Part shown: piece by piece, positions 1,955 through 30,884 of the stretch
Numbering within the stretch: position 1 is the stretch's first letter
Layout of the letters: the number at the start of each line of letters is the position of its first letter
Assembly: GCA_000165345.1 (NCBI GenBank)
Contig: CM000436.1
Coordinates: 896,001 to 960,000, forward strand
Length of the DNA: 64,000 nt
Reading direction: 5' to 3'
Notes under the pieces: generated by a model
Seen by the model: the letters and a program-made list of their open reading frames with translations, nothing else
Told to the model about the DNA's origin: nothing
Database searches by the model: none
Made by a program: the position numbers and the translations under genes

Positions 1955-3523
1955 TCATTCTCTGACTTTATTCATTATTTCAAAGTAGTTTCTAGTCTTC
2001 TTTGAGAAAAAAACCTTCGTTAACTGGCTTCTAAATTTTTGTCTTAATGTACGATTATTGTTTTTTCCAAATGGTCCAATATCTTGTCCATGGGTGGCTT
2101 TTCTTCTAGTCTTTTTGTATTTTCTAGAATAATATATTTTTGAAAAACCTTCATTGGGCTTTTCCATTATAGAAGGTACTTTAAATGCATCGGTAACAGA
2201 TACAGCCCAAGAATTATCATACTCTGTGTAAAGTTTTCTTTCAGAAATATTTGGAATAAAATGAGGATAATGAGTGTGCAATACTCTTTGAGGATAAAGT
2301 GAATCCGTCCTTTCCAATTTAATGTAAGGTTTATCGTTATTTTCATAAATAAATCCAGATGAAATCACCTCTTGACAAAAGTATGTAAGTAATTCATACG
2401 ATTTTATATTTGTTTTTGAAAACGCAGCAATCTGCTGTACGCACCTTTTCTTATATCTCGATATTTTCATTGAAAGCCACATTGGTATCATAACCGAAAA
2501 AAATTTTGCAACAGAAATCTCAGATACGAATTGCAGTTTGGCAGTACTAGAAAGAGCATAATACCCCAAAGATGAAAGCATCGATCTAATTACAAGGAAA
2601 TTTCTTTCTGCAGAAATACTTGATAGAAACTTGTTATTTTGAATATTCGAAATGGTTGTTAATATTGCAAACCTTGCAAAAGCTTTAGGGTCTAAAAAAC
2701 TATTTAATGGCTTAATTAATTTGTATGATCTATCTATTCTTTCTTGAAGTTCAGTTCTTAACTTTGAAAAAGGCCCATTACTGAATGGCCTTGAAATGAT
2801 ACAAGCTTCAACTTTCTCACATATTTCATCATAATATAGAGATATTTGGTTATCTGCAACAATAGATACTGAATTCTTGCAGTTATAAATGGAAAATTTT
2901 TCATTCTTGTATCCCAATGACATTATTGATGCGCCTATAATATCTTGTAAACTATAGCTCATGAGCATACCTGTAAAGAATGGAGCCATGCCCATATGCA
3001 TACAGTGAATGATTTCTAAATACCAAATAGATGGAATCATACATATTTCTATCGCAAAGCTCATTAATCGCTGGTAGGGCTCAAATACAAGCTCGGGTAA
3101 TGTATACTTGAAATGTTTGACTCTTGGGTACTGAATATTCGAGTTGTAATCTGAATTACTCATATTTATTGAAATTCCTCTTCTAATAAAGCTTGAAACA
3201 GATTTTCTTTCTAATGGAATGTGCGTTGGAAAGTTGCCTGAGGGCTTTGAGGAACTAATTATATCCGGATTTTCGTCACAAACATCCCTATTTAAAGATA
3301 TTGTAGCTTCCTTAAAATTTGTGTAATCATTCACGAAAGAGATTCTAGAATCTAAAAGTAAATCTCCGGAAGAACTATCATGAGCAGAATTTACGCCCAA
3401 AATTAATTTTTGCCATCCATTGTCTGCCTCTATCCCAGGCTCTAATTTATAGCCGGTCAACTTGGATCCTTTGACCAAATTAATAGTTATAAGGGTTAAA
3501 ATAAAAATATTAAGGTAAAGCAT
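1955..3523 (-). CDS. Secreted WYLE-motif family protein, paralog 1 (522 aa), single exon.
   Basis: Genuine ATG start. The N-terminal signal peptide is MLYLNIFILTLITINLVKG. The conserved core is LPELVFEPYQRLMSFAIEICMIPSIWYLEIIHCMHMGMAPFF...SYSLQDIIGA, shared with the ORFs at 4268, 9790, 12384 and 15756. The C-terminal tail is K/R-rich. Confidence 0.8.
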   Translation of the reverse strand: MLYLNIFILTLITINLVKGSKLTGYKLEPGIEADNGWQKLILGVNSAHDSSSGDLLLDSRISFVNDYTNFKEATISLNRDVCDENPDIISSSKPSGNFPTHIPLERKSVSSFIRRGISINMSNSDYNSNIQYPRVKHFKYTLPELVFEPYQRLMSFAIEICMIPSIWYLEIIHCMHMGMAPFFTGMLMSYSLQDIIGASIMSLGYKNEKFSIYNCKNSVSIVADNQISLYYDEICEKVEACIISRPFSNGPFSKLRTELQERIDRSYKLIKPLNSFLDPKAFARFAILTTISNIQNNKFLSSISAERNFLVIRSMLSSLGYYALSSTAKLQFVSEISVAKFFSVMIPMWLSMKISRYKKRCVQQIAAFSKTNIKSYELLTYFCQEVISSGFIYENNDKPYIKLERTDSLYPQRVLHTHYPHFIPNISERKLYTEYDNSWAVSVTDAFKVPSIMEKPNEGFSKIYYSRKYKKTRRKATHGQDIGPFGKNNNRTLRQKFRSQLTKVFFSKKTRNYFEIMNKVRE

Positions 3524-4267
3524 ATTATATTAGGCTTCATTATTGGTACATCGACGCAATAATTAGCAAAACTCAAAGTAGATAAAATGAAAGGTCTCTT
3601 TAAAGAAAAAAATCTGAACTAGCGCCAAAATAGGTATTTTAAAATGCAATAAATCAAAGTTTACCCAAAAAGAAAACAAACAAATAAATTAACTATATTA
3701 CTTTATTGAAGTGATAAATTACATTGGGTACTTCATTGTCCCTACTACAAGTGCCCCTCAGCATTCTGATTAGCAAACCATTCGCTAAATGTACGAATAG
3801 TTTTTCAAACAGGAAACAAATGTATTTCGCTCTGATCGCTAACTTTTAATTTCGAACGTCCATTGTCTGTACTTAATATATACATAATTTTTTAATGAAT
3901 TCTTACCATCGGCGCATACAAATTTAACACACTATGCAGCAAAAATGCCTGAAATAACTCTTTTCCTGCATTAACTCGTAACAGTTCAAGAGAAAAAATC
4001 AGTAATTAAAGCAACATGCAGACAAAACTTGTTATATCTCCGAGAATAATACATATTATTGAATATAATTATACTACGATTCAATAAATATTCTGGAAGC
4101 TGTTATAGTTACAAAGTATTATTTAATAATTATTAATATTGAATCAGGAAATTAGCTGGAATTTAATTTCAGGAGATAATTAAGCCAAAAATACATTATT
4201 TAGTAATATAATTTTCTAATTGCTGAGAAGTTCAAAGTTCGAAAAGATAAATAATACTGCAAATATT

Positions 4268-5968
4268 CTACTTACTTCTTCTCTTTGTCAATTTATTTGT
4301 AAAACTCTTAAAGCTAATCCTCGTAACTTTTCCTGTTTTTATCTTACGTGAGGAAGCATCCATTGATTTAGGTCCGATCCCACTATTGTAGTGGTCTCTT
4401 CGGAATGTTCTTATTAGTGTTTTTGATTTAAATACCTTTTGTACTCGTCCCGGTCTTACAACTTCAGGTTTACTTACTTCAATTTGTGCATTTATCCAAG
4501 ATTCGTCTTCAGAATATTTCACGTCATTTGTCAAGTCTGGAACGAAAGAACTATATGAAGGATGCAGTACCCTCTGAGGCATAACAGCCATAGAATGTAA
4601 ATTAGGATCAGCATAGGATTCGATTGTAGCATCAACAATAAACCCTGCAGAAAAAATTTCCTTGCAAAATAACTCAAAAATAATTTCCTTGTCAGCTTTG
4701 GCTTCATGAGAAAATTTAGCTAGTTTTTTGACACAGCCAGGGATTGAAAGCAATGATACTTCAAAAAGCATATTCAGAATTGTCTTTGTGAAAAATAATA
4801 AGACCTTCTTTTCTGTATCAAATACCCAACTTTGATTAGTAGATATCGCATAGTATGCCAAACTTGCTAGTGCTATTCTTATTGGGAGGAAATTTCTTTC
4901 AGGATAAATTTTTATATCAACGTTTTTATCTTTTATAAGTGACATTGAAAGTAAGACTGCATACCTATAAAATTCCATCGGCTTTAAAAACCCCAGTTTT
5001 TCTGGAATGTGGCTATACGTATTTGCTATTCGAGTTTCGAATTCTCTCTTTTGTTTAGAAAAATATCGTTCAAAATGCTTTGATTCAAGGCATGCATGCA
5101 CAGCAATACAAATTTCCCTATAATGCGGAGAAATATAATCATCAACTACTAGTGATACTGCATAAAAACAGTTTTCCATTATAAAACGTTCGTCTTTATA
5201 GCCGACACTCATCAATGCTGCGCCAATAATATCTTTTAATGAATAGCTAAAAACCATTCCAAGAAACTTTGGTGCCATGCCAAGGTACATACAATGAATT
5301 AATTCTAAATACCAAGTTGAAGGAACCATGCATTGTTCAATAGCAAAAGTCATTACTCTTTGGTATGGCTCTGAAGGTAATAAAACCAAGCTTCTTCTGA
5401 AGTGCTTTACTCTAGGGAAGTTAGACAACTTAATAGTGTCGGATAAATTCAAATCAAAGGTTCTCTTAATGTAATCCGTAATTCGATTGGGCTTAGCCTC
5501 TGTTGGAAGGTGAACAGGAACAACTGATGTAGGGATAAAAAATTTATCAGAAAGAATTTCATGTTCATAATGGTCACTACAGAAAATACGTTGAGGGCTA
5601 TCACATCCAAAGTATTCATTCGACTTAGTAGACAATGCACTCTCCCAATTTTCTCCTGGTTTTACATTATCAATAATCAGAGTAATAAATCTATTCCAAG
5701 TCGATTTCCGGCCATTTAACAATTTATCATCGTCAATATAACTCTTATCTTTATCTATTTTTGGAGTAGAATCTGCGCTAATTGGTTTGGAGTCCGTTAC
5801 CTTTGAAGTTTTACCTTGTTCATCAATTTTAACCGCAAATTGTCGTGTTGAATCGGCTATTGAAGCGGACTCAATATAATTACAACAACTTATTGTGACA
5901 ATTACTAAAGGCAATATTAAGAATAATATATCTCTCATTTTTTTCTCTTTTCCAATATCTTGTGTCAT
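4268..5968 (-). CDS. Secreted WYLE-motif family protein, paralog 2 (about 566 aa; an alternative ATG at 5938 gives MRDILFLILPLVIV...).
   Basis: The track ORF begins at a TTG (5980). The first ATG is at 5968 (MTQDIG...). The hydrophobic signal peptide is LFLILPLVIVTISCC. The core is EPYQRVMTFAIEQCMVPSTWYLELIHCMYLGMAPKF..SYSLKDIIGA. The C-terminal tail is basic. Confidence 0.75.
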   Translation of the reverse strand: MTQDIGKEKKMRDILFLILPLVIVTISCCNYIESASIADSTRQFAVKIDEQGKTSKVTDSKPISADSTPKIDKDKSYIDDDKLLNGRKSTWNRFITLIIDNVKPGENWESALSTKSNEYFGCDSPQRIFCSDHYEHEILSDKFFIPTSVVPVHLPTEAKPNRITDYIKRTFDLNLSDTIKLSNFPRVKHFRRSLVLLPSEPYQRVMTFAIEQCMVPSTWYLELIHCMYLGMAPKFLGMVFSYSLKDIIGAALMSVGYKDERFIMENCFYAVSLVVDDYISPHYREICIAVHACLESKHFERYFSKQKREFETRIANTYSHIPEKLGFLKPMEFYRYAVLLSMSLIKDKNVDIKIYPERNFLPIRIALASLAYYAISTNQSWVFDTEKKVLLFFTKTILNMLFEVSLLSIPGCVKKLAKFSHEAKADKEIIFELFCKEIFSAGFIVDATIESYADPNLHSMAVMPQRVLHPSYSSFVPDLTNDVKYSEDESWINAQIEVSKPEVVRPGRVQKVFKSKTLIRTFRRDHYNSGIGPKSMDASSRKIKTGKVTRISFKSFTNKLTKRRSK

Positions 5969-7650
5969 AGTTAATATCAAGGGCGGGAATTAATTTAATT
6001 TGATAAAATTATTAAAAGTTTCGATAAAAACCTTTTTAAGCAAATAAATTGCATTGTTAGACATGGCCAATTATTAGAACTAATTTCTTTTACTTTTGTT
6101 AAAAGCCAACGTGATTCTTCCGGTAGGCTTCTTAAGACTTTCCCATGGGTATAAAATACTTCGAATATATTTTCAATTCAATAATGATTCATTTTTTAGT
6201 CTGTTTTAAAGTTATTTAAAACATTTTCCTTTTCGCTTTGTCTATTTCTCCCCTAGATTCTATGTTACTGGAAAGTTTACCAGTCAGTTTTATATATATT
6301 AACTCCACAGAGCTGAGTTCTAAAAATTATAATAGGAAAGTACAGAACTCTTGGTGGAATTGTTACTCTTTTAAAACCACCCAGTTGATTGTTAGCTTGG
6401 AAATTATCTATAAAACCAATGAAGAAATTCATTTGCAAAAAAAAACTTGTGCGCAAGAATGTTAAATTTTGCTCAACTTTATGGAACGGTAGAATTTAAA
6501 TGAGCAATTAATATCAAATAGATATAACTATTGCATAATGCTTTCAAAAAATAACTTCAGTATTTCAATAATTTGCAAGCATGTTTCTAGGTCATTAATC
6601 TACCAATATGGTATATTCCTAAAGAAGATAATATAATTCCAATTCTGAGGAATTTTTTGATACAAATATCGGAAATATTAATATTTAACTGGATACGGAG
6701 TGCACTAACAAGTGTCGTGCAAATTGAACTGGGCTGAAATCATCGTTCTTGTATTTTAACAGTGAATAATACCTTTTTATTATTCAAACTATTTCCGAAT
6801 GTGAATGTAGAAAATGTACTTTCTGAAAGTGACTTAAACTTTAAGTATGTTCCCATTGCTTTTTCGAATTAGAATTTGGTTTTATAAATTGTATTATTTA
6901 CAAAGAATGAAATAAAATGAAAACTTCGTATTGGAAAAACGCCATTCTTATATACACAGTGTATTGATTTCATCGACAAATAATATATCATATTTACCTA
7001 ATTAGAAAAGCTCATAATTCGTTTGTATTACCCTGCAGAAATACTGATATTTCCCAAATATTTATACTGAAAAGGCTAAATAAACGTCTTCTCCAACTTC
7101 AAAATTCTCATTTTTTCAGTTTATGAGATTATTGTATAATTATATTTTCTTTTGAAATATGTACTAAGTCCATTTAATAAGAAGAAGCTAAACAAATAGT
7201 ATTTGTTTTTACTCTGATATTTAATTAATCCCTCTAAGTCCTTATCTTAAAGCGTTAAACTCGATAAATATTTGATTATTTTTTTGTGTTAGACTTTAAG
7301 TTGAATTGCTGAAATTTGTGGCTTATTTCTATATTGAACGAGCTTGAATAGGCCAGACGTAAAATTGAAGAAAATAGTATTAATGCTTTTTTCAAACTCG
7401 TCGGCGCTATTTAAAAATTCGGAATAAAAATAGAAATAATAATCGAATAAATAAATGTATACCCCAAAATTTTAATAAAGTATATATAACTCCAAATAAT
7501 ATCTATAAATTTTAATAATAAATTTATCCAAGCTAGAATATTGTTTTAGTTATTTCTTACCAAAAAAAAAAAATAAATCATAAAGAAATCAAAAAAATAT
7601 GATAAAGCTTTAACATATTCAGCTGTTAGCTATGATTTTATTTAACCTTA

Positions 7651-8900
7651 TTATATAAAGTTATGATTAGATATAACTATTTTTTTGTTATCATTTACTA
7701 TTGACCTTTTTTTCAAACTTCTAAAACATAACTTTGTTCTCTTTTTTTTGGAAAGATTTTTAATTAATTCGACTGTATCAGAACTGTCTACTGAGATCTG
7801 AGTTTGATTAAAGCTATTTGTTATCGTGGAATTCGCACTATTAAATGCATCATCTTTGTCATATTTTTGACCAGATTCTAAGTAATCTTTAGAAACGTTT
7901 TTGAAATTCATCCATGAATGATTGTATGTCAAAAGTGGAAGTTCTTAGGAAACTTCAGAAATTGTAGATACATGTGAACTTAACAAAATTCTTTTTGAAT
8001 GGATTGATTCTATTAATATTGAATTAATTTCCCCATTATTTTGAAATGACTCATAAATAAAACCAACAAAAAATTTCATTATCTCCCTTGAACATTGCCG
8101 AATAACTTCATCTATCTTCTCAAATAAAAGATTTGAGATTAGTATTGTAAAGAAACTTACTAAAACACTCTCAGAAAAGAAACTCATTTCAATTTTAACA
8201 AGCTCATAATATCCAACTGCTGCTGCCATAACTCTAATAAGAAGTTTCTTTCAGGAAAATTTTTGTTTAATGTCATCTTTTTAAAAAAAAATTGAATATA
8301 AAGTTGAACACCTTGCAAATACTTTAAAGTTGAGAGCACCTTCAAGAGGAGGAATAGCATGATATACTTTTTGAATCCTACGATTGAATTCGCTTTTAAA
8401 CCTGATAAAATTAATTTCATAGAATGATCTGGATTTGAGACAAAACCCTGCTTCTCCATAAATTTCAATAAAGTGAACCAAAATTTTATCATCTAGAAAA
8501 AGAGGTAAATAATTGACAATTTTCAAGGGAAAATTGTTTATTTTTATATTCCATCGAGAAAATTGCAGAATTAGCCAAATCTTGTAGACTGTAATTCATA
8601 AGCATACCATTAAAATAAGGGTCATTGCAAAATACATAAAATTAACCAGTTCTATGTGCCAAATTGAGGGAAGCATGCAAACCTCGATAGCAAATCCCAC
8701 AATTCTTTGATAGGGTTCATGAGTTAATTTAGTTAAACCTCTTTAATAATATTTTATTCTGGGGAAGAAATAATTTTGAATTTAGTCATATGCTATTAGG
8801 CTCTCTGAGTAAATGTTTGCTAAATAATGCCAAGCTTTCTGTTTCAATTGTGATGTGGCAAACCTTTTCAAAATCTTTATGGCTCTCCTTCATGACTTTT
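7651..8900 (-). pseudogene. Decayed WYLE-family paralog with frameshifts and stop codons; the 5' boundary is approximate and may extend to about 9300.
   Basis: Four overlapping minus-strand ORF fragments lie in different frames (7651-7932, 7945-8229, 8184-8492, 8281-8526). Placed in paralog order they align to the C-terminal two thirds of the family: EFNRRIQKVYHAIPPLEGALNFKVFARCSTL; ERNFLLELWQQ; IMKFFVGFIYESFQNNGE; HSWMNFKNVSKDYLE plus a basic tail. Upstream at 8530-8720 the reverse strand still reads ...YQRIVGFAIEVCMLPSIWHIELVNFMYF... but is interrupted by stops. Confidence 0.6.
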
Positions 8901-9789
8901 TTTTGCTGAAAAGATCCCATTAAAAAAATCGAAATGATTTCCTGATTCTAAATATGAAGAAAGAACATCCTTTTTGTAATATTCGCCTCAAGATAATTTG
9001 TTGTAAGAATGTTTAGTCAGTGTTGACTATTACATGTTACTTCTGATTCTTTGGAAACTAATCCAATTAACACCAATAATATTCGTCACTTTTGAAATTA
9101 TCAATATCAATGTTATGGTATTTACTGTTAATTTAGGTCATTTTGAATCATTCATTTTCAAATAGAGCATTGGCGTTAGAAATATTGTCAAGTTTATCAA
9201 GAATATATATAATGAGTATTGTTATAAGCCACACTTTCATAAAATTGTTAGCTTTAAATAAATTACGCCATTAAAATTTCAATTCTTAAAAATCTGTAAT
9301 CTCTAATAAAAATAAAATTTGGGCGTCATGGTTTTTTTTGTTCATCCTATTTTGAGAATAAAGATACCACTCAATATAAATAAGCAAACGATTTAATTAT
9401 GCAGTATCAATTATAGATAGAATTCAGTTTAATAGAAAAAGTGATTATTATAACTCATGCTATCCGCCTTTTGACTGAATCGAAGTCTTAATATTCAGAA
9501 TTGATTAACGCAGTACCGAGTAAAAATAATTATAACATAAGCAGCTTGAGGTATTAAGTTAGAATCATCTAACAAAGAATTCCCCAATTAAACTTAATAA
9601 CACATAGATATTTTAACTTAGCTCAAATAGAGTTTGCGCATAACTTGTTTTGACTCTAATTAAATTCAATAACTTATTATTGAAAAATACATAGGCTAAA
9701 CTGTTCTGTATGAAACTGAAATAATCAGAAACTCAAGAAATAAAATGTAAAATATTGGTCACAGTACAATTCATATTATATGCCAGCAA

Positions 9790-11301
9790 TTACTGATCAG
9801 CTGAACCTAAATGTGAAGTGATTAATCCAGAAATCCTCGTCTTGCGATTAGTAAATATTTTTGTAATTTTCGTAAAGCCGCTTTTCTTTTTGGTATTTGT
9901 TTCGGTAGATCTCGTTTTACTGATACTATTTTTACTTGCTGTTTTGAAATATTTAGTTGTCTTGGGCCTTTTCTTTTTACCAGTTTCGACTCCAATATAT
10001 TCAATGGTTCCTACTGAACTAAAACTTAGCCATGATAAATCTTCTTGAGAGCTTGCTCCATTAATTAAGGAAGGAATTACAGAAGCATAAGCCGGATCTA
10101 AAACTCTAGACGGCAGAATTGCTTTTTTAAATGCTTCAAGAGAATCCCCTTCTTTTTTAACCGTTTCATCAATAAACCCAAAAGATAAAAACTCCTTGCA
10201 GTAAAGCCCAACGATTTCTTGAAAATCTTTGCTTTTTGAACCTAATATCGCAGGAAAGCTAATTAAGCACATCTTCATATAATACTTAAATTGAGAAAAA
10301 AGCATGCTATTTATAAATTTTGTGATTTTGGACATCCTTTCGGAAATAGTACTCTCTTCAACTGGAATGAACTTATTAACTAAGTAAGTCATACTTAATA
10401 CCATAGCTCTAATAATTAAAAAATTTTTTTCTGTAGCGGGATCTGCTAATGAAAAATTTATTGTTTTAGATGATAGTGATAATAACAAAGAGTGTCTTGC
10501 ATAATTTTTATGTTGTTCCACCTTTTCTTGGCCTTCAATATTAGAATAAGCATTATCAATCCTTTGCTGAAATTCTTCTTTTAAACGAAGATATGGGTCG
10601 GAAGAAAATTGATTAGATAACAGGCATTGACTCATACTTTCACAAATCTCTTGAAAGTTTGCATTAATTTGTTCGTCTGTTACAGATGAAACAGATCTAT
10701 AACAATTTTCAATTGTAAAGCTTTCATCTAGGTAACCCATTGTTTTAATAGCTGAACCGACAACATCTTGAAGGCTATAACTCATTAGCATGCCTGAAAA
10801 AAATGGCGCCATCCCAAAATGCATACAATGTATTAATTCCAAATACCAAATAGATGGAATCATACAGATTTCAATAGCAAAAGTCATTATTCGTTGGTAT
10901 GGCTCAAATGGCAATTTTGGAAGATTCTTATTAAAATGTTTACGCCTTGGAAAGTGTGTTTGAGACATATTAATTCGTGATCTAAAAAGACTATCTTCAG
11001 TATAAAACAAAAAATGTGCCGGACTCTTACTCTCTCGCGGAACATGAGTAATAAACTCTGAAGAAGGTGGAGTTTGATCTAAGTATTGACTCGATGAATA
11101 AAAAACTCTGTCACAAGATACTGACTGTTGAGGGTTTTCAAACGAGAAGTAATTTTCTGCACTTGAAGAAACAAAGTCATCCAATGACCCATTCAAAGAA
11201 TGTTGAGAAGACTCTATTACTAGCCGTAATAAACCATTTTCAAATGATTTAACATTTCTTATAAACATAAAGAGTAAAAAAATTAGTTGTCGGCAACGCA
11301 T
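9790..11301 (-). CDS. Secreted WYLE-motif family protein, paralog 3 (503 aa), single exon.
   Basis: ATG at 11301..11299. Signal peptide MRCRQLIFLLFMFIRNVKS. The core is LPFEPYQRIMTFAIEICMIPSIWYLELIHCMHFGMAPFFSGMLMSYSLQDVVGSA. The C-terminal tail is basic K/T-rich. Confidence 0.8.
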   Translation of the reverse strand: MRCRQLIFLLFMFIRNVKSFENGLLRLVIESSQHSLNGSLDDFVSSSAENYFSFENPQQSVSCDRVFYSSSQYLDQTPPSSEFITHVPRESKSPAHFLFYTEDSLFRSRINMSQTHFPRRKHFNKNLPKLPFEPYQRIMTFAIEICMIPSIWYLELIHCMHFGMAPFFSGMLMSYSLQDVVGSAIKTMGYLDESFTIENCYRSVSSVTDEQINANFQEICESMSQCLLSNQFSSDPYLRLKEEFQQRIDNAYSNIEGQEKVEQHKNYARHSLLLSLSSKTINFSLADPATEKNFLIIRAMVLSMTYLVNKFIPVEESTISERMSKITKFINSMLFSQFKYYMKMCLISFPAILGSKSKDFQEIVGLYCKEFLSFGFIDETVKKEGDSLEAFKKAILPSRVLDPAYASVIPSLINGASSQEDLSWLSFSSVGTIEYIGVETGKKKRPKTTKYFKTASKNSISKTRSTETNTKKKSGFTKITKIFTNRKTRISGLITSHLGSADQ

Positions 11302-12274
11302 ATTTATGATTTTGAAATATTTTAGGCGTTTGACCTGGATTTCAGAATTTTTTTGCGCGCGTATTAATACCGTTTTCTTTTTTGAAAATCTAACAGATCT
11401 GTTTTCCTGATATTAAAATTGCCAGAAAAAAAAATCTGATTTTCTACTAAAAGCAATTTTGTTTAAACTATTTAATAATAAATTATTATTTTTGGTTACC
11501 CTATTTTAGAATTTGATTATTATTTTTAATCTATACCCAAATTGGATACAACCAAATAATAAAATTATAAATCTTAATTTATAATGTAATATTTGTTCGT
11601 TATTTTGTTCTGAAATCCTCTTTGAAAATTTTTTTCAAAATAATTGCCAAACACAAAAAATGAATTCCTTGGGAATATGATAGCAATTATTTGTTATTAT
11701 GGTATAGTGATATAGCTATTTCTCAACAAAAATCTTGTTTATACAGATTATTGCACGGGAAAACTTGTAGAGGTTTATTTCTTATGCTGTTCTATGCAAG
11801 CTTACCTAAAACATTAATTATTATTAAAGCCAAATCTATTAATATCACTTTCTGTACAATTATCAGTTTTATGTATAATTTTTGTTAATTTCTGGAACTT
11901 TGCAACTTCATATATGGAACTAATTTAATTTTTTTTTTCCAGTTACTGAAATAAATAAAAACTTTGACAAATACGTTTCAAAGCAAATATAGAAGTTTTA
12001 GTAAATACGGAGTTATGGTTCAAAATTTTACTTCGTGCAATGAAGAATGAGTTTATAATTTTTAGTTAAAAGGAATTTATCTAAAATTAATCTGACTATA
12101 CGTTTAAAAAAAAAGATTAGATATATTGAAAATTTCAAACTAAAATATTTCAACCCGTATAATATTCTTTATTTAAAACTTGTGTAATAATTACAGATAC
12201 AGTTTGCTTTAGTAGAGTTTCCAAAATTTGCTACAAGTATCAGCGAAACATATTATTTCCATTGTGCATGCATA

Positions 12275-12284
12275 GGGCGCCAAT
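12275..12284. promoter_or_regulatory. GGGCGCCAAT box about 100 bp upstream of WYLE paralog 4.
   Basis: A GGCGCC core in AT-rich upstream DNA. Similar boxes sit upstream of paralog 1 (3622..3630, TTTTGGCGC on the minus strand), paralog 3 (11352..11361, TTTGCGCGCG) and paralog 5 (17686..17718, CCGCCAAT and CGGCGGGC). Confidence 0.35.
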
Positions 12285-12383
12285 TTAGGAATTGATTTAT
12301 TTATCAATTATTGCAATGAAATTAATAAGAGATGAAATTATGTCATCATTGCTAACTTTTAAACTGATCCTATACTTACTACT

Positions 12384-14352
12384 ATGATGAGCAGTATTAT
12401 TCTAAATATCTTAAAAATACTCATTATATTTGTATTGATTAATATTATTGGATCAGACTCAGGTGCAGTATCGAACCCATCCAAACAACAAAATAAATTT
12501 ACTAAATTAAATCAAGTATTTAAAAGAAAAAATAAACAATATTATGCTATTTCAAAAGATGGCTCTCTCATATTTCCTGCACTAAAGGCAATTTCTTCCA
12601 AGAATATTCCGCTTTTGAAAAATGTTAATAGCTTTAATAATGAATATGACGAAGGTAAGTTATTTATTAGTAGTTTTAGCTGATTTCTTACATTTCATAG
12701 ATATAATTAATAGAAGCCATGTATATATTATTAAAAATGGAGAAGTTCCTGGGTGGGATGGAATGAAAATACCAATACATTATTCCAGTGAGCATTCAAA
12801 ACTAAGATTGAAACCACCTGAAAAAAGCAGGTCAATTTCTATTTTCCCACCTGTTGTAGCCGAGAGGTAAGTAAAAATATTAATAAATAAATTCAAAATT
12901 GTTTATGTTTTTAGATTTATGTTATTTGCTTTAGAAGAATGCCTTCTTCCATCAAAGTTTTTTATTCAGGTTGCTTTTTGTACATTTGATGCAATTTATC
13001 CATTTTTAGAAGGTGTTCCTTCTGGAGAAGTAATGCAAGATATTGTAGGGGCAGCTATGTATTCGGTAAATAAAATAGGAGACGATTTTTCCTTTGATAC
13101 CAAATATTGCCGTAAAGCAATAGCAATGATTCCAGATTCACGTATAAACTTAGAAGTTGATTCAAAATGCAATGATATCTCTCTATGTATGCACCAAGAC
13201 CATTTTCCTCAATTATCACGTTCCCTAAGTGTATTTAATTTGGAACAATTAATAGAGAAATCGTTTATACTTCATGGTCTTGAGTATCAGCTCAGAGTGA
13301 GAAAACTTATTCAATCAATTCTTTGGAAAATAATTAAATCTGCCCATAAATCAAATATAAAAAGAGAGCATATGAATCCCAATAGACTTTTTTCAATAAT
13401 CAGAGCATATGTACTTACATTGTATATTAGACATTCGAGCCTAATTATTCCAGGATGGTATTTAAATAAATTTCCATCGGCAAAAAATTCATTATCATTT
13501 GTATATGTGAAAAATGAAGATTATACTGAACAATCTGCTTATATAAACTACTGTGCAAGAAAATTAAAATGGTGGTTAGATGCATTCCAACCAATTGTAT
13601 CACCGATTTTCCCGAATATGGATACCAAGGATGAGGTTTCAAGATCCGCATGCTTTCAAGCAGGAAGAGCAGGATTTGTAAGTAACGAAGAGTTTGACTT
13701 CTCAAATATGATCGAGGAAGGTACTGAAAGTGTTGATTTGCTGAACCTTCAACTTCCCATTATATTGAAAAAGTCAGAAGAGGAAATAAAGTATATAAGA
13801 AATAATAACTTAAGAAAAGCTCAAGAAAATAGAAAGTGGACTAGTCACTATGAGTCGTATCCATATTCATTAAATGGAAGAATGTTCCAGGATATTATTC
13901 ATGAAAAAGATAAACTTAACTTACAAAATTTAGCTCAAGAAGCCGAATTAAGCCAAGATAAGGACACTTTATTAGATGAAGTTAAAGATCTATTAGGAAG
14001 AAAAAAAAATGGTGATGAGCCATCTATTAAATATGAAAATATTTTTGATACAAATGGCAGAGAAAGTGACAAAAAAACGTCTTTCTCCCCAGTTGAATTT
14101 ATAGCTCAATTAAAGCAAGATAATATTGACTTAGAATCTCACGATGCAAACACGAGCAATATTTCCTATAAACCCAGAAGCATAATTAGAGATCAATTAA
14201 TTCAACCGCAAAGCACTCATTCTTTGAAACAGGGTATTTATGGAAATGCCATGGATGACACAAATTCTGGATTTGAGGAGGATGAAATCGAGGAATTTGA
14301 AGATGAAGATGAGTTTGAGAGTGAAAACGATAACAATTATTCTACAAAGTAA
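12384..14352 (+). CDS. Divergent WYLE-family paralog 4 with three exons: join(12384..12654,12701..12866,12915..14352), about 624 aa.
   Basis: ATG at 12384 with signal peptide MMSSIILNILKILIIFVLINIIG. Donor GTAAGT at 12655 and acceptor catag at 12700 give a 46-nt intron in phase 1. Donor GTAAGT at 12867 and acceptor ttttag at 12914 give a 48-nt intron in phase 2. The splices join three track ORFs into one frame. Exon 3 carries the family core in divergent form (FMLFALEECLLPSKFFIQ...GEVMQDIVGAAMYS). The C-terminus is acidic (EEDEIEEFEDEDEFESEND), unlike the basic tails of its paralogs. Confidence 0.6.
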
Positions 14353-14447
14353 TTAAATATATATAATACCTAAAGCAATTCAATTTTCAATTTCAGTCTT
14401 TGTTTATTCTATTTGTTTGAGATTTCGAATTATTATGAAATATACAG

Positions 14448-15524
14448 TTATGCATTTCCATTTCTCTGCAATTGCCCCATTCTACTGAATAAATTATTTC
14501 CAATTATACTTCCACTAATACCTAGTGTATTTCCTAAAGTACCTTTTATTCCGTTATTACAGTTGCAATTTCCATTGCAGCTAAGGTGACTTCCGTTTAT
14601 ATTTCCATTATTTAGAGGAAACCCATTATAAACACCATTACTTTGTTGAAAGCCTCCGTAGAAACCGTAGTCTTCGAATCCTCTTATTTGTTGCCCATTC
14701 ATAGGTTGTATTCTCGATCCAAACGGAATAGGGGAAATAAATGGAAGTACAACTGCCTGTACTAGAGCAAAACAACAACTACAAACGGCCAATGATATCT
14801 CTATGCATGCCATCCATTTCATAGTAGATCTCAATTTATCTAGAGGCGATCTATATTTTTTTCTTTTTTCTCTGAGTTCTTTCTCTCTCTTTTTAAGCAT
14901 TTTTTTTCTTTTCTTTCTTTTTTTCTTTTCTTTTTTTGAAAGTTTGCTATCGTCCATATCATCGTCAAGATATCTTCTTTTTAGTTTATTTCGTCTGTAG
15001 TTGATTTCGTTGTGATTAAGTTCATGAAAGCTCGCTAATGAACGGAAGTTTGGCTGGCTTTGAATGCCAAAGTTAACTCTTGAATTAGTATTCTCGAGTT
15101 CCAACTTATCTGTAATTTTTGATATGTTTTTAATATTGTATAGATCTTTTAGGTATATTTCGTCAGTTGAATTTCTATCTTGATTTATTATAAATGAAAG
15201 CTCATCAAATAGCTTGTTATTTTTATCTCCAAGAATGTAACATGTATGTGTTTTATTTACAAATTTAAGTGTATTTATTTGGTAATCACACTTTTCGTGT
15301 TCGTATGCCGAAGTTTCATTAAAATAAATATAATATAAGTTCATTTGCTCATCTTTCAAAATCTTTTCGTTTGTCAGGTTCATCTGAGCCAATATATCCT
15401 CAAATATACTATCTCTTATGGACTCTACATGCTTGACTTGGGCATGATCGATCGAGCTTGAATCTACAAAATTAAAAAAAATCAAAAAAGTAAGTATAGG
15501 AACTAATATTAAATTTGATTTCAT
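14448..15524 (-). CDS. Hypothetical secreted/membrane protein with a lysine-rich stretch and a C-terminal-proximal TM segment (358 aa from the ATG at 15524; an upstream ATG at 15593 gives 381 aa).
   Basis: From 15524 the N-terminus MKSNLILVPILTFLIFFNFV looks like a signal peptide. There is an extreme basic run KKEKKKRKKRKKMLKKREKELREKRKK, then a hydrophobic segment WMACIEISLAVCSCCFALVQAVVLPFI. The C-terminus is N/G-rich and low-complexity, with many NxS/T sequons. Confidence 0.5.
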   Translation of the reverse strand: MKSNLILVPILTFLIFFNFVDSSSIDHAQVKHVESIRDSIFEDILAQMNLTNEKILKDEQMNLYYIYFNETSAYEHEKCDYQINTLKFVNKTHTCYILGDKNNKLFDELSFIINQDRNSTDEIYLKDLYNIKNISKITDKLELENTNSRVNFGIQSQPNFRSLASFHELNHNEINYRRNKLKRRYLDDDMDDSKLSKKEKKKRKKRKKMLKKREKELREKRKKYRSPLDKLRSTMKWMACIEISLAVCSCCFALVQAVVLPFISPIPFGSRIQPMNGQQIRGFEDYGFYGGFQQSNGVYNGFPLNNGNINGSHLSCNGNCNCNNGIKGTLGNTLGISGSIIGNNLFSRMGQLQRNGNA

Positions 15525-15755
15525 TCTAACAGTGATGAAAGCTAGTTTGGCAAATTGCTCTCTACATACAATAGTTTTTCCTGATATTTTCATCTTAAAA
15601 AAATTTGTATGTCAAGTAATTCAAATAAATGCATAATATTTAACGGAACAGTCTGATTATTGCCTTGGGATCATAGAAAAAATTATATTTATTATGAGTT
15701 TTAATAATCTATAATTTAATAAGATTATAGAGTGTTTATGGATTATCTATTTTTC

Positions 15756-17372
15756 TCAGTCAATATCTATAGTTGAAAGAATATCTTCGAGCTGTTTTTT
15801 CAATCCAGAATTTGACGTCGAATTTGAACTAGCATAGCTTTCTATCTCTGTACTGTTGCTTTCATTTGATGTTTTGTTTGCAAAATTTTTTGGAACATCT
15901 AAACGGGTAACAACTGAACGGTTATTCAATATTGCTCCTTTATCACTAAACTGAACTTGCACTTTTTTCTTAGGAGATTGATTTTCTAAGGCTTTTTTTT
16001 GTTTAATATTTTGTTTAAAAGCCCCTCTACTCTTCGAACTTAAGTCAGCACTTTTTACTTGACTCGATGTTTTATCTTTTATTTTTTTGGTCGGCTGTTC
16101 CTTGACAATTTCTCTTGAATGAGCAAGGTGAGGGTATGCTAAATATTCAAGCTCGTTTATTGAAATATTCTTTGGAATTTCAATTTCACTATTTATAAAT
16201 CCCATAGAAACTAATTCAGTGCATGCGTGCTGTATTATTACATTTGAGAATGGGCAAAAGCCTGTCTTATCAAAATAAGATAAATAATCCACTGAATTGT
16301 TTGATAAGTGAGCATTAATAATCAGGCGTGCGCATTTTGCAATCATTTTAATAGGAGTTGGCTGAAGTAGGCTTTTATCTCCAATTTTCATATAGGCCTT
16401 TGGAGAAATCTCAAATGCATCAATATCTTTAAGTCCCTGTCTAATTAAGTATTCAGTTAGAATCATTATAAAGTTGAAGTATCGTATCACATAGAATAGT
16501 TTATCAGGAAATTTTATCTTTTTTCCATCATTTTTACTAGCGGCAGGCCCATAACCTTTTTCCCTTCTTGCCATTAATATTCCAACAATGATTTTCTGGG
16601 CATAAGATCTGGGTTGCTGGCCTCTAAAGAACGGTGGCTTATCTTTGTAGACGTCAGTAATTTCTTTTTCTAATTTCCTAACTTGATTTTTATTATTTCT
16701 CAGAAATTCTTTAGAAGTAAGGCATGTCAGCATCATACTGCAGACTTCCGAATTTTTTTTGTTTATTGCTATGTCACTAAAAAGAGATATTGAGGCCTTA
16801 CATTTAGCTAAACTAAAACTTTCACTTGGAAGATCCATAGATGCTAGTGATGCACCAATAATATCTTGAAGAGTATAGCTTGTAAGAATACCCGTTGTAA
16901 AGTGTGTAACTCCTCTATGCATACAGTATATGAGCTCGAGATACCACAAAGAAGGTATTTTGCAGATACCTATTGCATACGAGAATAACCTTTCGCTTGC
17001 CTCTAAAGGAAGTCTTTGGGAACTTTGAGAAATTACTGGCATTCTTCTAATTTTTACAGAATTATCGATTGGAATAATTGGAACATGAAGCCTAATTGGA
17101 AGTTTTGAATATATGTTCTCAGAAAGAGGGCTTGTTCCATCAGCATTAATATCATTAGGAAAATTGGGTTCAATCCCTTTAATTACAACTGTTCTTAAGA
17201 ACGGGTCCATTTTTCTGACTCTTATTCTATATTGGGAGTTGTATATATGATTGTTTTTTTGATTATCTACCCCTACCAGTATATTGTCAGGATTGTAACT
17301 AGTTTTAGAGGACTTTTTTGAAAGAATTGGAATAAATGTACTAATAAATATTATAATAAGCGTTAGTCTCAT
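15756..17372 (-). CDS. Secreted WYLE-motif family protein, divergent paralog 5 (about 538 aa), single exon.
   Basis: The track start at 17387 is a GTG. The first ATG at 17372 gives signal peptide MRLTLIIIFISTFIPILS. The core is LEASERLFSYAIGICKIPSLWYLELIYCMHRGVTHFTTGILTSYTLQDIIGASLA. The C-terminal part is K/S-rich. Confidence 0.7.
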   Translation of the reverse strand: MRLTLIIIFISTFIPILSKKSSKTSYNPDNILVGVDNQKNNHIYNSQYRIRVRKMDPFLRTVVIKGIEPNFPNDINADGTSPLSENIYSKLPIRLHVPIIPIDNSVKIRRMPVISQSSQRLPLEASERLFSYAIGICKIPSLWYLELIYCMHRGVTHFTTGILTSYTLQDIIGASLASMDLPSESFSLAKCKASISLFSDIAINKKNSEVCSMMLTCLTSKEFLRNNKNQVRKLEKEITDVYKDKPPFFRGQQPRSYAQKIIVGILMARREKGYGPAASKNDGKKIKFPDKLFYVIRYFNFIMILTEYLIRQGLKDIDAFEISPKAYMKIGDKSLLQPTPIKMIAKCARLIINAHLSNNSVDYLSYFDKTGFCPFSNVIIQHACTELVSMGFINSEIEIPKNISINELEYLAYPHLAHSREIVKEQPTKKIKDKTSSQVKSADLSSKSRGAFKQNIKQKKALENQSPKKKVQVQFSDKGAILNNRSVVTRLDVPKNFANKTSNESNSTEIESYASSNSTSNSGLKKQLEDILSTIDID

Positions 17373-18378
17373 CTCTTCAAGATTCACATAAATAAATTAA
17401 CAATTTCAAATAGGAGATCTTTATCAGAAGCTTAAGATTATTTTTCTTTTGTTGTCAGCAACTTAAATACTCCTCGGATTGCATTCTTTTATTATTACTC
17501 CTTGTTAGACGGGAAAAACTAACAATTGAATCTCTTCTGGCCAATGATTAGTTAACAAAATAGTCTTCACGTAATAGTGCAGTCCCAGGCGTTGGATTCC
17601 TAAAGTAGTACTAGTATTCACAAAAAAAATCTATATTCGTTATCGACGTTACCTGCAATAACTGCAAAAAAAATCATGTCTTTACCGCCAATTTGTGCGT
17701 ACTAATTTGTCGGCGGGCTGTGCAGCCGGAATAAAGTCGAAATTTAAACATAAAATTAAAGTACTAAAGTATAAAAATAAAATACTCAGATATAAATATT
17801 GATTCCGGAATCGCAACCTTCCTCAAAAAATAAGTCAGTAGAGGGAGCGAAATCATCATTGTATTTTATCGCTTAAGTTAAAAGCTATGCAAAAAGAGCT
17901 AAAATCCAAATATTGTCGGCTCATTATTACACAACCTGAAAACTCAAATATAACTCCATATTTCTCTCGAAATAATATTTATAAAGCTAATACTTCAAGA
18001 CTCATGACTATTGAAATCTTGTAATTCCACAATATAAGCGATATCCATGCTCCGAACTTCAATTAAAATCATATAAACTAGGCTTAAGGTTATCTCAGCG
18101 ATTGAATATGACAATATCACAAACTCCTCTGGATTCCGGGTAGGTTCAAACCCAAAACAGCAGAAAGGAGATTCAATCAATACATGCAAGCATCATTGAA
18201 TAACCAAAGCCCAGATATTCTCCAAGATTTGATGATTTCTCTAAAGCAAATTTATTCTTGTCTCCGATATTCTTAAAAGGGATAGACAAATACATGGCGC
18301 CGATATTGTTGAGTTATATAGCAGGATTTCAAAACCACGGAAATATGATAAAGCGAAATCGTGAAAATATATTGCCTT

Positions 18379-29020: not shown

Positions 29021-30343
29021 TTATACACTTACCTTTTTATCTTCTAACTCGTCAAAAACGTAAATTCCATTTAGGTTATAAACTCCCGATACTAGTGCCT
29101 GGCAATCCAGCTCTAATGTAACTGTTTCCCCCGCTTTTAGCTCTTCTAAATATAAACGGTCATTTCCTAATATTATTATTGGTAGAAGCTGGTCAAAATC
29201 CAATCTAATGCTCATGCCTTTTTGATCAATGCTTAAGTTATTCGTAACATATAAAAAAACTTTAAATTCTTCCTGCCTATTATTTACTGATGGTAATTCA
29301 GCTTTGAGAATAATTGCGTTTTTCTCTTTATTCAATTTGTTTTGATCGCATAGAATTGGTAGACCAATTTTATAAGAGTCAAGCCATCCATCTCCATATG
29401 ATACTGAAACCCATCCAATTCTAAGCTTAAGTTCTAGAACCTCTCTACTACTCTTTCCTAAATTATTGTATTCTCTACTGCAAGACGTAAATTTAAATAT
29501 TTTGTTGTATTTACATCTTGGTTGAATATATAAAGGCTCGTTATGCTTATTTTTTAAATTCACATCTTCCAGTTCAAATATTAGTTCAGGTAGTTTTTTT
29601 ATATTTATAGGTTCAAGCTTCATACTACTAAGGGTAATACTTTGGTGAGAAACATTTTCTAGTGAAACTTCAACAAAAATGGTCTTCTTATCCATAGTAT
29701 CTTCATCTAAATTGTATAATCGGTGAGAAATATTGAAAGGAGAAAGCACTGCAAATTTGTATGACTTCTTTTGTGTTAATCTAGCCTCATTTGATGTGAA
29801 AAATAATTGGCAAGTTAAACTATATAGCCCAACCTCGTCTACCCTTTCTTTAACTACAATATCCAATGAATCTCCAATATCTATATCGGAATAGTTATCC
29901 TCATTATTGTATAGTATGTGGCGTTTCTTTGTACCTACAAGTTCTACCTAAAAGAAATAAATTATAATCTTTCAATACAATGTAACCTACTTTTAGAACT
30001 ACCCCATTTGCCTTAATAATACTCGAGTTGGTGATACTAATAAACGCATGAAAAGACTCACCGCAATATAAACGGCTTAAGAAGTGAAATAAATAGTTTA
30101 TTTGTAAAATTATTCATTAAATTGATAAATTAGACGCTCTTTCATACTTACCACTGAGTTGTTGGCAATAAAAGAGGAAACATATTATCAACACACAAAA
30201 CTTCTTCTTCTCCATTTTCCAAATTACACTATTGTTGTTAGAAGTTAAATTAACAAATTAAACTCAAGTATTTTTAAAAAACTCACCGGAAGTAAACTTA
30301 ATGTAGATACCTGTGAATCAATTGGAGAATGTGAAAGTGACAT
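29021..30343 (-). CDS. Hypothetical conserved-looking protein with four exons: complement(join(29021..29947,29991..30036,30152..30228,30287..30343)), about 368 aa. The 5' exons are provisional.
   Basis: The 281-aa track ORF begins at a TTG, and its frame continues 27 codons upstream to acceptor cttttag (intron 29990..29948, 43 nt, donor GTAGGT). Further upstream, exons are bounded by GTAAGT (30151) ..115 nt.. tttattag, and by GTGAGT (30286) ..58 nt with a CTAAC branch.. caatag. All phases close from the ATG at 30343 (MSLSHSPIDSQVSTLSLLP|CNLENGEEEVLCVDNMFPLLLPTTQ|C ITNSSIIKANGVVLK|VELVGTKKRHILYNNE...). The function is unknown; the protein has beta-rich alternating hydrophobicity. Confidence 0.45.
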
Positions 30344-30719: not shown

Positions 30720-30884
30720 ACATTATGCTAATGTCAAAATTTGCATTTAAAACTGAACAATCTAAATAATCCGACTCCAATACATAAAATAAAATTTAAG
30801 CATTAAATAAAGCTAAGCGTAGAGGTTTGTATATCCCTTATTGAATTCTTGCAAGTAAAACAATTTTTCTCGATATTTTTTGAT

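What the first reader, a model, noticed from the sequence alone, without database searches (positions are those of the whole stretch)
1955..17372. Tandem array of five intact and one dead paralog of a secreted 'WYLE'-motif protein family of unknown function
Six copies of one gene family occupy 15 kb on the same side of the window, interrupted only by one unrelated membrane-protein gene (14448-15524). Every intact copy has a cleavable signal peptide, and copies 1-3 and 5 end in a K/R/T-rich basic tail. Their most conserved block is about 55 aa, PxEPYQRxMxFAIExCMxPSxWYLExIHCMxxGMAPxFxGMxxSYSLxDIIGA, which carries invariant Cys/His/Glu positions and could form a metal- or ligand-binding or enzymatic core. 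I recognise no characterised domain in it. From memory it matches the lineage-specific 'WYLE' family listed among Cryptosporidium secreted gene families, whose function has never been established. Signal peptides together with NLS-like basic tails suggest exported effectors that may enter the host nucleus. Divergence among copies (about 35-70% identity in the core), one decayed copy and one copy with a different C-terminus indicate ongoing birth-and-death evolution.
Basis: partly seen in the sequence, partly recalled or inferred. Interest (0 to 1): 0.7.

Follow-up and report, generated by a model that had tools for sequence, protein, structure and literature searches.

The report
Known Cryptosporidium WYLE secreted-protein gene cluster
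This is the already-described chromosome-8 cluster of 'WYLE' secreted-protein genes of the gut parasite Cryptosporidium parvum: five working genes plus two (not one) decayed copies, whose function is still unknown, and the one member tested so far stays with the parasite instead of entering the host cell.

Summary
The window is Cryptosporidium parvum chromosome 8. Four of the five products match deposited C. parvum proteins exactly, and one of them is annotated 'Secreted Protein (WYLE gene family)'. The cluster of five WYLE genes is already in the literature, so the finding is already known.

- One copy (12384-14352) lies on the opposite strand and has two short introns.
- There are two dead copies, not one. 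A second, very decayed remnant lies at about 6079-7230.
- Both dead copies are orthologues of genes still intact in C. ubiquitum and C. canis.
- The paralogues are ancient (at most 39% identical). This is old duplication with lineage-specific loss, not ongoing birth.
- Only three copies have a truly basic C-terminus.

New here:
- AlphaFold models of two paralogues agree on an all-helical domain of about 300 residues with six or seven conserved cysteines.
- The domain has no Pfam match, no PDB sequence match and no PDB fold match.
- The family occurs only in Cryptosporidium-like organisms.
- The domain is under purifying selection, while some N-terminal regions and tails evolve nearly neutrally.

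The host-nucleus idea is unsupported, because tagged WYLE4 was 'not in host cell'. Function remains unknown. The best guess is a non-enzymatic component of the vacuole or host-parasite interface.

The parts
1955..3523 (-). WYLE copy A, intact, 522 aa. It has a signal-peptide-like N-terminus and a basic tail (+13 net charge in the last 90 aa).
   Evidence: ORF. Exact match to EAK89515.1 / CPATCC_004200. dN/dS against C. hominis is 0.13.
4268..5938 (-). WYLE copy B, intact, 556 aa from the ATG at 5938. The mechanical ORF extends to a TTG at 5980. Basic tail (+13).
   Evidence: The C. hominis orthologue has the same length, 556 aa. dN/dS is 0.47.
The remnant of the core reads YKRIMSFSN*VNM---IYYLSMKSIHCVY. 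The N-terminal part may extend to about 7480.
   Evidence: Collinear tblastn HSPs to the intact C. ubiquitum 524-aa gene, the chipmunk-genotype 526-aa gene and the C. canis 526-aa gene, with sum E 2e-21. 36 shuffled, reversed or other-intergenic controls gave a best E of 0.02-1.3. Its position between psiX1 and B is syntenic.
It retains EPYQRIVGFAIEVCMLPSIWHIEL. It carries at least 3 frameshifts and at least 6 premature stops.
   Evidence: Three-frame translation. Best match is the intact C. ubiquitum 545-aa gene next to D (48% identity over 408 aa, E 2e-99) and the C. canis 541-aa gene. It is also dead in C. hominis and C. meleagridis, with some shared stops. Fragments are annotated as small hypothetical proteins.
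9790..11301 (-). WYLE copy D, intact, 503 aa, basic tail (+12).
   Evidence: Exact match to EAK89518.1 / CPATCC_004204. AF2 model has pTM 0.85. dN/dS is 0.43.
12384..14352 (+). WYLE copy E, intact, on the opposite strand. Three exons: 12384-12654, 12701-12866 and 12915-14352. The product is 624 aa. The motif is KFFIQ rather than WYLE, and the C-terminus is acidic (-16).
   Evidence: GT..AG introns of 46 and 48 nt. The spliced product matches QOY40122.1 / CPATCC_004205 'Secreted Protein (WYLE gene family)' exactly. The introns are conserved in C. hominis and C. meleagridis.
14448..15593 (-). An unrelated gene for a protein with a signal peptide and a C-terminal hydrophobic segment (381 aa; alternative start at 15524). 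It is embedded in the cluster and is syntenically conserved between E and F.
   Evidence: Exact match to EAK89520.1 / CPATCC_006 series (CPATCC_004206). It occupies the same position in C. hominis, C. meleagridis, C. ubiquitum, C. canis and C. felis. No Pfam domain.
15756..17372 (-). WYLE copy F, intact, 538 aa. It has an internal basic stretch but a Ser/Asn-rich acidic C-terminus. It belongs to the most conserved orthogroup.
   Evidence: Exact match to EAK89521.1 / CPATCC_004207. Domain dN/dS is 0.05. The AF2 model has the same helix order as D.

Best explanation
Shown: this is the chromosome-8 WYLE gene cluster of Cryptosporidium parvum. It holds five intact genes (A, B, D, E, F) and two pseudogenes (psiX1, psiX2), with a conserved unrelated membrane-protein gene embedded between E and F.

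Each intact gene encodes a protein with three parts:
- an N-terminal ER signal sequence;
- a variable N-terminal region;
- a conserved, confidently modelled all-alpha domain of about 300 residues, carrying six or seven conserved cysteines, followed by a fast-evolving charged tail. The tail is basic in A, B and D, mixed in F and acidic in E.

The domain has no detectable relative outside Cryptosporidium-like organisms and no similar fold in the PDB. The paralogues are ancient orthogroups. E, F and one 'core' gene predate the gastric/intestinal species split. A, B, D, X1 and X2 arose before the C. felis / C. canis / C. ubiquitum / C. parvum radiation. X1 and X2 were lost by decay in the parvum-hominis-meleagridis lineage.

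Inferred mechanism: the proteins enter the secretory pathway and fold into a disulfide-stabilised helical domain. They are then released by intracellular stages into the parasitophorous vacuole or host-parasite interface. There they act as non-enzymatic structural or binding components. The paralogues are subfunctionalised through their divergent N-terminal regions and tails. They do not act as host-cytosol or host-nucleus effectors.

My confidence in the identity and anatomy is about 0.97. My confidence in the inferred mode of action is about 0.35-0.4.
For: Identity:
- Exact protein matches to C. parvum records, and 'WYLE family' names in several annotations.
- Literature: six WYLE genes, five of them clustered on chromosome 8 (PMC7371110).

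Anatomy:
- ORFs and paralogue similarity.
- Introns of E.
- Pseudogenes.

Secretion:
- N-terminal hydrophobic segments and no later TM-like stretch.

Domain:
- AF2 model of D: pTM 0.85, pLDDT above 85 over most of residues 120-420.
- AF2 model of F: the same order of helices, pLDDT above 90 over most of residues 120-270 and mostly 70-93 beyond that to 420.
- Invariant cysteines.
- Domain dN/dS against C. hominis is 0.05-0.45. Several N-terminal regions and tails are near 1.

No enzyme or domain signature.

Localisation:
- WYLE4-HA coincides with the parasite and/or parasitophorous vacuole at 24 h in HCT-8 cells and is listed 'Not in host cell' (PMC8687662).

Ancient orthogroups and losses:
- NJ tree and synteny.
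Against: - Only one member has been localised, with a C-terminal tag and at light-microscope resolution. I could not establish which copy is cgd8_3560 (E or D). The basic-tailed copies may therefore be untested.
- The disulfide pattern is inferred from conservation only. I could not read model coordinates.
- AF2 models rest on shallow alignments of 38-50 sequences from one genus.
- AFDB fold libraries were unavailable, so relatives among predicted structures are not excluded.
- No expression, knockout or interaction data were found for any copy.
- A population study reports positive selection on WYLE genes (PMC8744675). That would also fit direct host or immune contact.
Confidence: 0.55

Rival explanations
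1. One reading: WYLE proteins are effectors exported into the host cell. Their K/R-rich C-terminal tails act as nuclear localisation signals that carry them into the host nucleus.
For: - A, B and D have strongly basic tails (+12 to +13 in the last 90 aa) with KKKR / KKTRRK-type stretches.
- Another C. parvum secreted family, MEDLE, is exported to the host cytosol (PMC8687662).
- N-terminal regions and tails evolve fast.
- WYLE genes are reported as positively selected.
- The member that was tagged may be E, which has an acidic tail. In that case the basic-tailed copies would be untested.
Against: - WYLE4 (cgd8_3560) tagged at the C-terminus was 'Not in host cell'.
- Lys-rich stretches are common in proteins from this 30% GC genome.
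- The tail is not conserved in charge across the family: E is acidic and F is mixed.
- No MEDLE-like host-targeting motif was identified.
Confidence: 0.12
2. The conserved WYLE block is the active or metal-binding site of a novel secreted enzyme, or of a small-ligand-binding protein.
For: - The block is highly conserved, with Cys, His and Glu positions.
- The domain is under purifying selection.
Against: - His and Glu in the block are replaced in E-type, F-type and some other members.
- Across 50 sequences the block's only invariant residues are one Cys, one Pro and one Gly.
- The block is strongly hydrophobic and is modelled as three packed helices, which is typical of a structural core.
- No similarity to any enzyme family or fold.
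Confidence: 0.08
3. WYLE proteins are integral or membrane-inserting proteins. The hydrophobic core block embeds in the parasitophorous vacuole or feeder-organelle membrane. Some records name them 'integral membrane protein'.
For: - C. meleagridis records call some members 'Integral membrane protein'.
- The top (non-significant) Foldseek hits are helical membrane transporters.
- The core block is very hydrophobic.
Against: - No 19-residue window after the signal peptide reaches a Kyte-Doolittle mean above 1.6 in A, D, E or F. B has only one marginal window.
- The core helices are 12-17 residues long and contain charged residues.
- The Foldseek matches have TM-scores of about 0.1 and E above 1.
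- The basic tail is not amphipathic beyond chance.
Confidence: 0.07

Closest known systems
Cryptosporidium WYLE secreted protein family. It was named in the original C. parvum genome analysis (own knowledge: Abrahamsen et al. 2004). It is described in PMC7371110, and WYLE4 was tagged in PMC8687662.
   Same: This locus is that family's chromosome-8 cluster. It has a signal peptide, the WYLE motif mid-protein, five clustered genes, and exact matches to proteins annotated as WYLE family.
   Different: Nothing differs in kind. Details added here:
- the three-exon structure of E was re-derived independently;
- there are two pseudogenes, each with an intact orthologue in other species;
- the orthogroup structure was worked out;
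- a fold model was obtained that has no PDB relative.
[quoted passage not shown]
   Same: It is a Cryptosporidium-specific, clustered, polymorphic family with signal peptides and no known domain.
   Different: - There is no sequence similarity.
- MEDLE genes are subtelomeric and vary in copy number. The WYLE cluster is internal, about 430 kb from the nearest chromosome end in C. hominis, and is made of ancient 1:1 orthogroups.
- MEDLE2 reaches the host cytosol, whereas WYLE4 did not.
SKSR family of C. parvum (SKSR1 is a small-granule protein secreted to the parasite-host interface and a virulence factor; PMC12092579).
   Same: It is a genus-specific secreted multigene family. The tested members stay at the parasite or interface rather than entering the host cell (for SKSR7 and WYLE4; for SKSR1). 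It is the best available analogy for how WYLE proteins may act.
   Different: - The sequences are unrelated.
- SKSR genes are subtelomeric.
- No organelle assignment or phenotype exists for any WYLE protein.
Lineage-specific helical secreted or exported families of other apicomplexans, for example Plasmodium PHIST (own knowledge).
   Same: They have a signal sequence, an all-helical conserved domain, and are expanded into paralogous clusters restricted to one genus.
   Different: - No sequence or fold similarity was detected.
- The WYLE domain is much larger (about 300 aa) and is rich in cysteines.

Membership tests
Cryptosporidium WYLE family | Significant sequence homology to proteins annotated as WYLE family. 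| tested here: met
   Copy D hits C. felis and C. hominis 'Secreted Protein (WYLE family)' at E 1e-67 to 0. A, D and F share 90% clusters with C. hominis proteins of that name. Spliced E is identical to a C. parvum record named 'WYLE gene family'.
Cryptosporidium WYLE family | [quoted passage not shown] | tested here: met
   Met for A, B, D and F (SIWYLE / STWYLE / SLWYLE). It is not met literally for E (KFFIQ), which is nevertheless homologous and annotated as a family member. psiX1 retains WHIE.
Cryptosporidium WYLE family | N-terminal signal peptide (secreted protein). | tested here: inconclusive
   All five have an N-terminal hydrophobic core (Kyte-Doolittle 2.4-3.4 over 10 aa) with small residues at -3/-1. 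Public names say 'predicted secreted protein'. No dedicated signal-peptide predictor or cleavage data were available.
Cryptosporidium WYLE family | [quoted passage not shown] | tested here: met
   Five intact copies lie within 15.4 kb. The orthologous loci are on C. hominis chromosome 8 (LN877954.1, 875-897 kb) and on the C. meleagridis chromosome, in the same gene order.
Host-exported effectors (MEDLE2-like) | The protein is detected in the host-cell cytosol or nucleus after infection. | not testable with these tools
   Literature only: WYLE4-HA is 'Not in host cell' (PMC8687662). The other copies are untested.
Any Pfam or PDB-represented domain family | A significant profile or fold match. 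| tested here: not met
   - Pfam: nothing above noise for 38 members.
- PDB sequence profile: best E 0.12.
- Foldseek against the PDB: best E 2.

The most novel reading that the evidence does not exclude
The WYLE domain may be a genuinely new, disulfide-rich all-alpha fold invented in the Cryptosporidium lineage to build the parasite's unusual epicellular host interface. The loss of two of the seven clustered paralogues (X1, X2) occurred specifically in the C. parvum / C. hominis / C. meleagridis lineage, while they remain intact in C. canis and C. ubiquitum. This loss may reflect a change in how that lineage engages host cells, that is, a host-range or virulence correlate.
Probability: 0.12. 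Interest if true: 0.5.

Novelty: already known. Interest (0 to 1): 0.2.

Why it matters
Cryptosporidium is a major cause of childhood diarrhoea, and its genus-specific secreted families are the main candidates for host-interaction factors. WYLE is one of the least studied of them. The cluster itself is not new.

What this check adds that is practically useful:
- Clean gene models, including the spliced opposite-strand member.
- Two pseudogenes whose annotated 'hypothetical protein' fragments should not be treated as genes.
- An orthogroup map (E, F, and the core group A/B/D/X1/X2) that tells experimenters which copies are ancient and constrained and which are fast-evolving. F has a domain dN/dS of 0.05. 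B, D and E evolve faster.
- A confident domain model with no known fold relative, which defines the unit to express, crystallise or delete.

Tried and rejected
1. Amphipathic membrane-binding helix in the basic tail. The hydrophobic moment of the best 18-mer in 12 tails was not above shuffles (fraction of shuffles at or above the observed value 0.10-0.93). Rejected.

3. Transmembrane reading of the WYLE block. No TM-length hydrophobic window was found.

4. Mapping cgd8_35xx gene IDs to individual copies, to learn which copy is WYLE4 (cgd8_3560) and whether the very highly expressed cgd8_3520 is copy A.
   - No supplement or paper gave sequence or length information.
   - The thioredoxin anchor (cgd8_3510) could not be placed.
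   - WYLE4 is either E or D. This is unresolved.

5. The AFDB fold libraries were unavailable.

6. Papers on the Cryptosporidium spatial proteome, dense granules and rhoptries were searched for WYLE or cgd8_35xx and gave no hits. The Sanderson 2008 sporozoite proteome is not held.

7. A shared promoter motif specific to WYLE genes was not found. E2F-like TTGGCGS sites occur upstream of A, E/D and F, but equally upstream of housekeeping genes in the window.

8. The two Streptococcus peptides in the database cluster of E share no visible similarity with it. This is a clustering artefact.
Full report
**What organism and locus this is**

The window is AT-rich (26-39% GC). Three ORFs of the array translate to proteins identical to deposited Cryptosporidium parvum Iowa II / ATCC records:
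- 1955-3523(-) = EAK89515.1 / CPATCC_004200
- 9790-11301(-) = EAK89518.1 / CPATCC_004204
- 15756-17372(-) = EAK89521.1 / CPATCC_004207

Their 90%-identity clusters contain C. hominis entries named 'putative Secreted Protein (WYLE family)'. A search with copy D returns only Cryptosporidium proteins, several with that name.

The orthologous locus lies at 875-897 kb of the 1.32-Mb C. hominis chromosome 8, so it is internal and not subtelomeric.

**Checking the observation**

tblastn of each copy against the window finds similarity only inside 1955-17372. E-values are 1e-69 to 1e-82 among A, B and D, 1e-24 to 1e-30 against F, and 1e-11 to 1e-14 against E.

Four intact copies are single ORFs on the minus strand:
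- A: 1955-3523
- B: 4268-5938
- D: 9790-11301
- F: 15756-17372

The fifth copy, E, is on the plus strand. The mechanical ORF list splits it into three pieces. Reading the DNA shows two short GTAAGT...AG introns, at 12655-12700 and 12867-12914. Splicing them out gives a 624-aa protein with a signal-peptide-like start. That product is identical to QOY40122.1 / CPATCC_004205, 'putative Secreted Protein (WYLE gene family)'. The original 2004 model (EAK89519.1) is the truncated 477-aa ORF. Both introns, with the same splice sites, are conserved in C. hominis and C. meleagridis.

All five proteins begin with a hydrophobic segment and have no later TM-length hydrophobic window, apart from one marginal window in B.

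Net charge differs among the tails:

| Copy | Net charge, last 90 aa | Note |
|---|---|---|
| A | +13 | basic |
| B | +13 | basic |
| D | +12 | basic |
| F | +5 | last 40 aa are -4 and Ser/Asn-rich |
| E | -16 | acidic |

The 51-residue core block is 73-84% identical among A, B and D, 49-65% between these and F, and 27-33% against E.

**The dead copies**

The region 7651 to about 9160 (-) carries a recognisable WYLE gene (EPYQRIVGFAIEVCMLPSIWHIEL...). It is broken by at least three frameshifts and at least six in-frame stops.

Its best match is not a C. parvum paralogue. It is the intact 545-aa gene that sits immediately beside the D orthologue in C. ubiquitum (48% identity over 408 aa, E 2e-99) and the 541-aa gene at the same position in C. 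canis. I call this copy psiX1.

Collinear fragments at 7230-7114, 7063-6950, 6780-6694, 6658-6596, 6596-6495, 6495-6280 and 6133-6086 (-) match residues 85-515 of the next gene along in C. ubiquitum (524 aa), the chipmunk genotype (526 aa) and C. canis (526 aa). The combined E-value is 2e-21. Thirty-six controls gave best E-values of only 0.02-1.3. They comprised shuffles, a reversal, block shuffles and five other non-WYLE stretches of the window.

Gene order is therefore:
- D - X1 - X2 - B - A in C. canis and C. ubiquitum
- D - psiX1 - psiX2 - B - A in C. parvum

The D-to-B interval aligns end to end with C. hominis at 93.9% identity. psiX1 is also dead in C. hominis and C. meleagridis, with some shared stop positions. 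The loss therefore predates at least the parvum/hominis split.

Pieces of psiX1 are annotated as small hypothetical proteins in several genomes.

**Evolution of the family**

A neighbour-joining tree of 58 family members resolves three orthogroups:
- an E orthogroup, including C. andersoni;
- an F orthogroup, including C. muris;
- a 'core' group. C. muris and C. andersoni have one gene here. The intestinal species have separate A, B, D, X1 and X2 clades, plus extra copies in C. bovis, C. ryanae, C. xiaoi and C. felis.

Paralogues within C. parvum are at most 39% identical. The duplications are therefore old. What is 'ongoing' in this lineage is loss, not birth.

Pairwise dN/dS against C. hominis (Nei-Gojobori) is shown below:

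| Gene | dN/dS |
|---|---|
| A | 0.13 |
| B | 0.47 |
| D | 0.43 |
| E | 0.62 |
| F | 0.24 |
| embedded membrane-protein gene | 0.15 |

Splitting each gene into parts shows the conserved domain under purifying selection (0.05-0.45). Several flanking parts are near 1: the B tail (1.12), the D N-terminus (1.07), the E N-terminus (1.25) and the E tail (0.93). These estimates rest on few substitutions.

**What the protein is**

No known domain or fold was detected:
- Pfam gives no hit for any copy, and no recurrent weak hit across 38 members.
- A family profile finds nothing in PDB sequences (best E 0.12).
- An exhaustive profile search of 1.84 billion representative proteins returns only 26 proteins. 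The ten clusters I looked up are all Cryptosporidium, except one unnamed protein from a 49%-GC Logan contig. The neighbouring 1948-aa gene on that contig is 46% identical to a C. hominis protein. It is therefore a divergent Cryptosporidium-like organism.

Structure prediction gave two concordant models:
- AlphaFold2 of copy D with the family alignment gives pTM 0.85. pLDDT is above 85 over most of residues 120-420, and the architecture is all-helical.
- An independent model of F gives the same order of helices. pLDDT is above 90 over most of residues 120-270 and mostly 70-93 beyond that to 420. Its N-terminal region and tail are disordered.
- Foldseek against the PDB has a best E of 2 and TM-scores of about 0.1.
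- I conclude there is no PDB relative. The AFDB libraries were not available.

Conservation within the domain:
- Six cysteines are invariant and a seventh is nearly so across 50 sequences. In copy D numbering they are C159, C200, C220, C226, C345 and C368, plus C146.
- In a secreted protein this pattern most simply indicates disulfide bonds in a structural core. It does not point to a catalytic or metal site. This is an inference, because I could not read model coordinates.

**How it most likely works**

Direct evidence is thin. In PMC8687662 the authors C-terminally HA-tagged one representative of each polymorphic secreted family. [quoted passage not shown] MEDLE2 was exported.

A population study lists WYLE genes among positively selected families. 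One WYLE gene carries SNPs in all human isolates examined in another study.

Combining this with the anatomy, my best explanation is as follows. WYLE proteins are secreted, disulfide-stabilised helical proteins that act at the vacuole or host-parasite interface as structural or binding components. Their paralogues are differentiated mainly by the N-terminal regions and tails. I rate this at about 0.35-0.4.

The rivals are:
- the host-nucleus effector reading, about 0.12. It is contradicted by the one test, but I could not determine whether the tagged copy was E (acidic tail) or D;
- an enzymatic or metal-binding role, about 0.08;
- a membrane-inserted role, about 0.07.

An amphipathic-helix role for the basic tail was tested and not supported.

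**Verdict**

- there are seven copies, two of them dead;
- one copy is on the opposite strand and has introns;
- F's tail is only partly basic.

The family identification is right, and so is 'no known domain'. The effector-to-nucleus and catalytic-core ideas have no support. The cluster is already known, so the novelty class is 'already known' and the interest is low.

The modest additions are the second pseudogene, the orthology of both pseudogenes to intact genes elsewhere in the genus, the orthogroup map, and two concordant structure models with no PDB relative.

Noticed in passing
window 14448-15593 (-): The 'unrelated membrane-protein gene' inside the cluster is not a random interruption. 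It lies between the E and F orthologues in C. hominis, C. meleagridis, C. ubiquitum, C. canis and C. felis. Amino-acid identity to C. parvum falls from 98% to 52% across these species, and dN/dS against C. hominis is 0.15. The protein has a signal peptide, a Lys-rich coiled region, a C-terminal hydrophobic segment and an Asn/Gly-rich tail. It has no Pfam domain.
   Followed up: partly
L008 10001-11533 (Logan SRR31860986 contig, 49% GC): An F-type WYLE homologue (P0064, 28% identical to copy F) sits on a 52-kb contig with 49% GC, far above any Cryptosporidium genome I know of. A neighbouring 1948-aa gene is 46% identical to a C. hominis protein. The contig therefore seems to come from an unsampled, GC-rich Cryptosporidium-like organism.
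   Followed up: partly
L005 15634-19740 (C. ubiquitum): The public gene call of 1089 aa merges the B orthologue (15634-17292) and the A orthologue (18187-19737) into one gene. A straight translation of the span contains 21 stops.
   Followed up: yes
L007 7791-9380 and 13027-13866 (C. felis): C. felis has an extra 529-aa WYLE gene between E and D. At the X1 position it has only a 279-aa call, which may be a truncated or decaying copy. Copy number in this cluster therefore varies among species by both gain and loss.
   Followed up: no
window 7948-8229 (-): A 94-aa ORF inside pseudogene psiX1 is annotated as a hypothetical protein (CPHLJ_8g3045 / CPCDC_8g3045). Similar fragments are annotated in C. 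hominis (92-237 aa) and C. tyzzeri (87 aa). These are almost certainly pseudogene fragments, not genes.
   Followed up: yes
window 3622, 12277, 17685, 22415, 24169, 30529, 33127, 42259, 43955 and others: The E2F-like heptamer TTGGCGS occurs 13 times against 3.7 expected. Most sites lie just upstream of start codons, both of WYLE genes (A, E/D, F) and of housekeeping genes. It looks like a general promoter element, not one specific to the cluster.
   Followed up: partly
window 24408-62905: The rest of the window holds ordinary genes:
- a protein with a sterol-sensing domain, Patched/NPC1-like (24408-28805);
- a TRAPPC13-like protein (29021-29866);
- RNA 3'-phosphate cyclase (30849-32201);
- a 2731-aa acetyl-CoA carboxylase (33328-41523);
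- an amino-acid transporter (48588-49961);
- DnaJ (59636-60910);
- a CRAL/TRIO protein (61898-62905).

No tRNA genes were found. A 2123-aa ORF (52806-59177, -) has no Pfam match.
   Followed up: partly
database cluster of copy E: Two Streptococcus peptides of 36-40 aa are listed as members of the 90% cluster of the C. parvum E protein, but share no visible similarity with it. This is a clustering artefact of the protein collection.
   Followed up: yes
literature, cgd8_3520: cgd8_3520, 'uncharacterized secreted protein', was the fourth most abundant C. parvum transcript in infected mouse ileum (PMC8852703). If the gene numbering runs as I suspect, this is WYLE copy A. I could not confirm the mapping.
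   Followed up: partly
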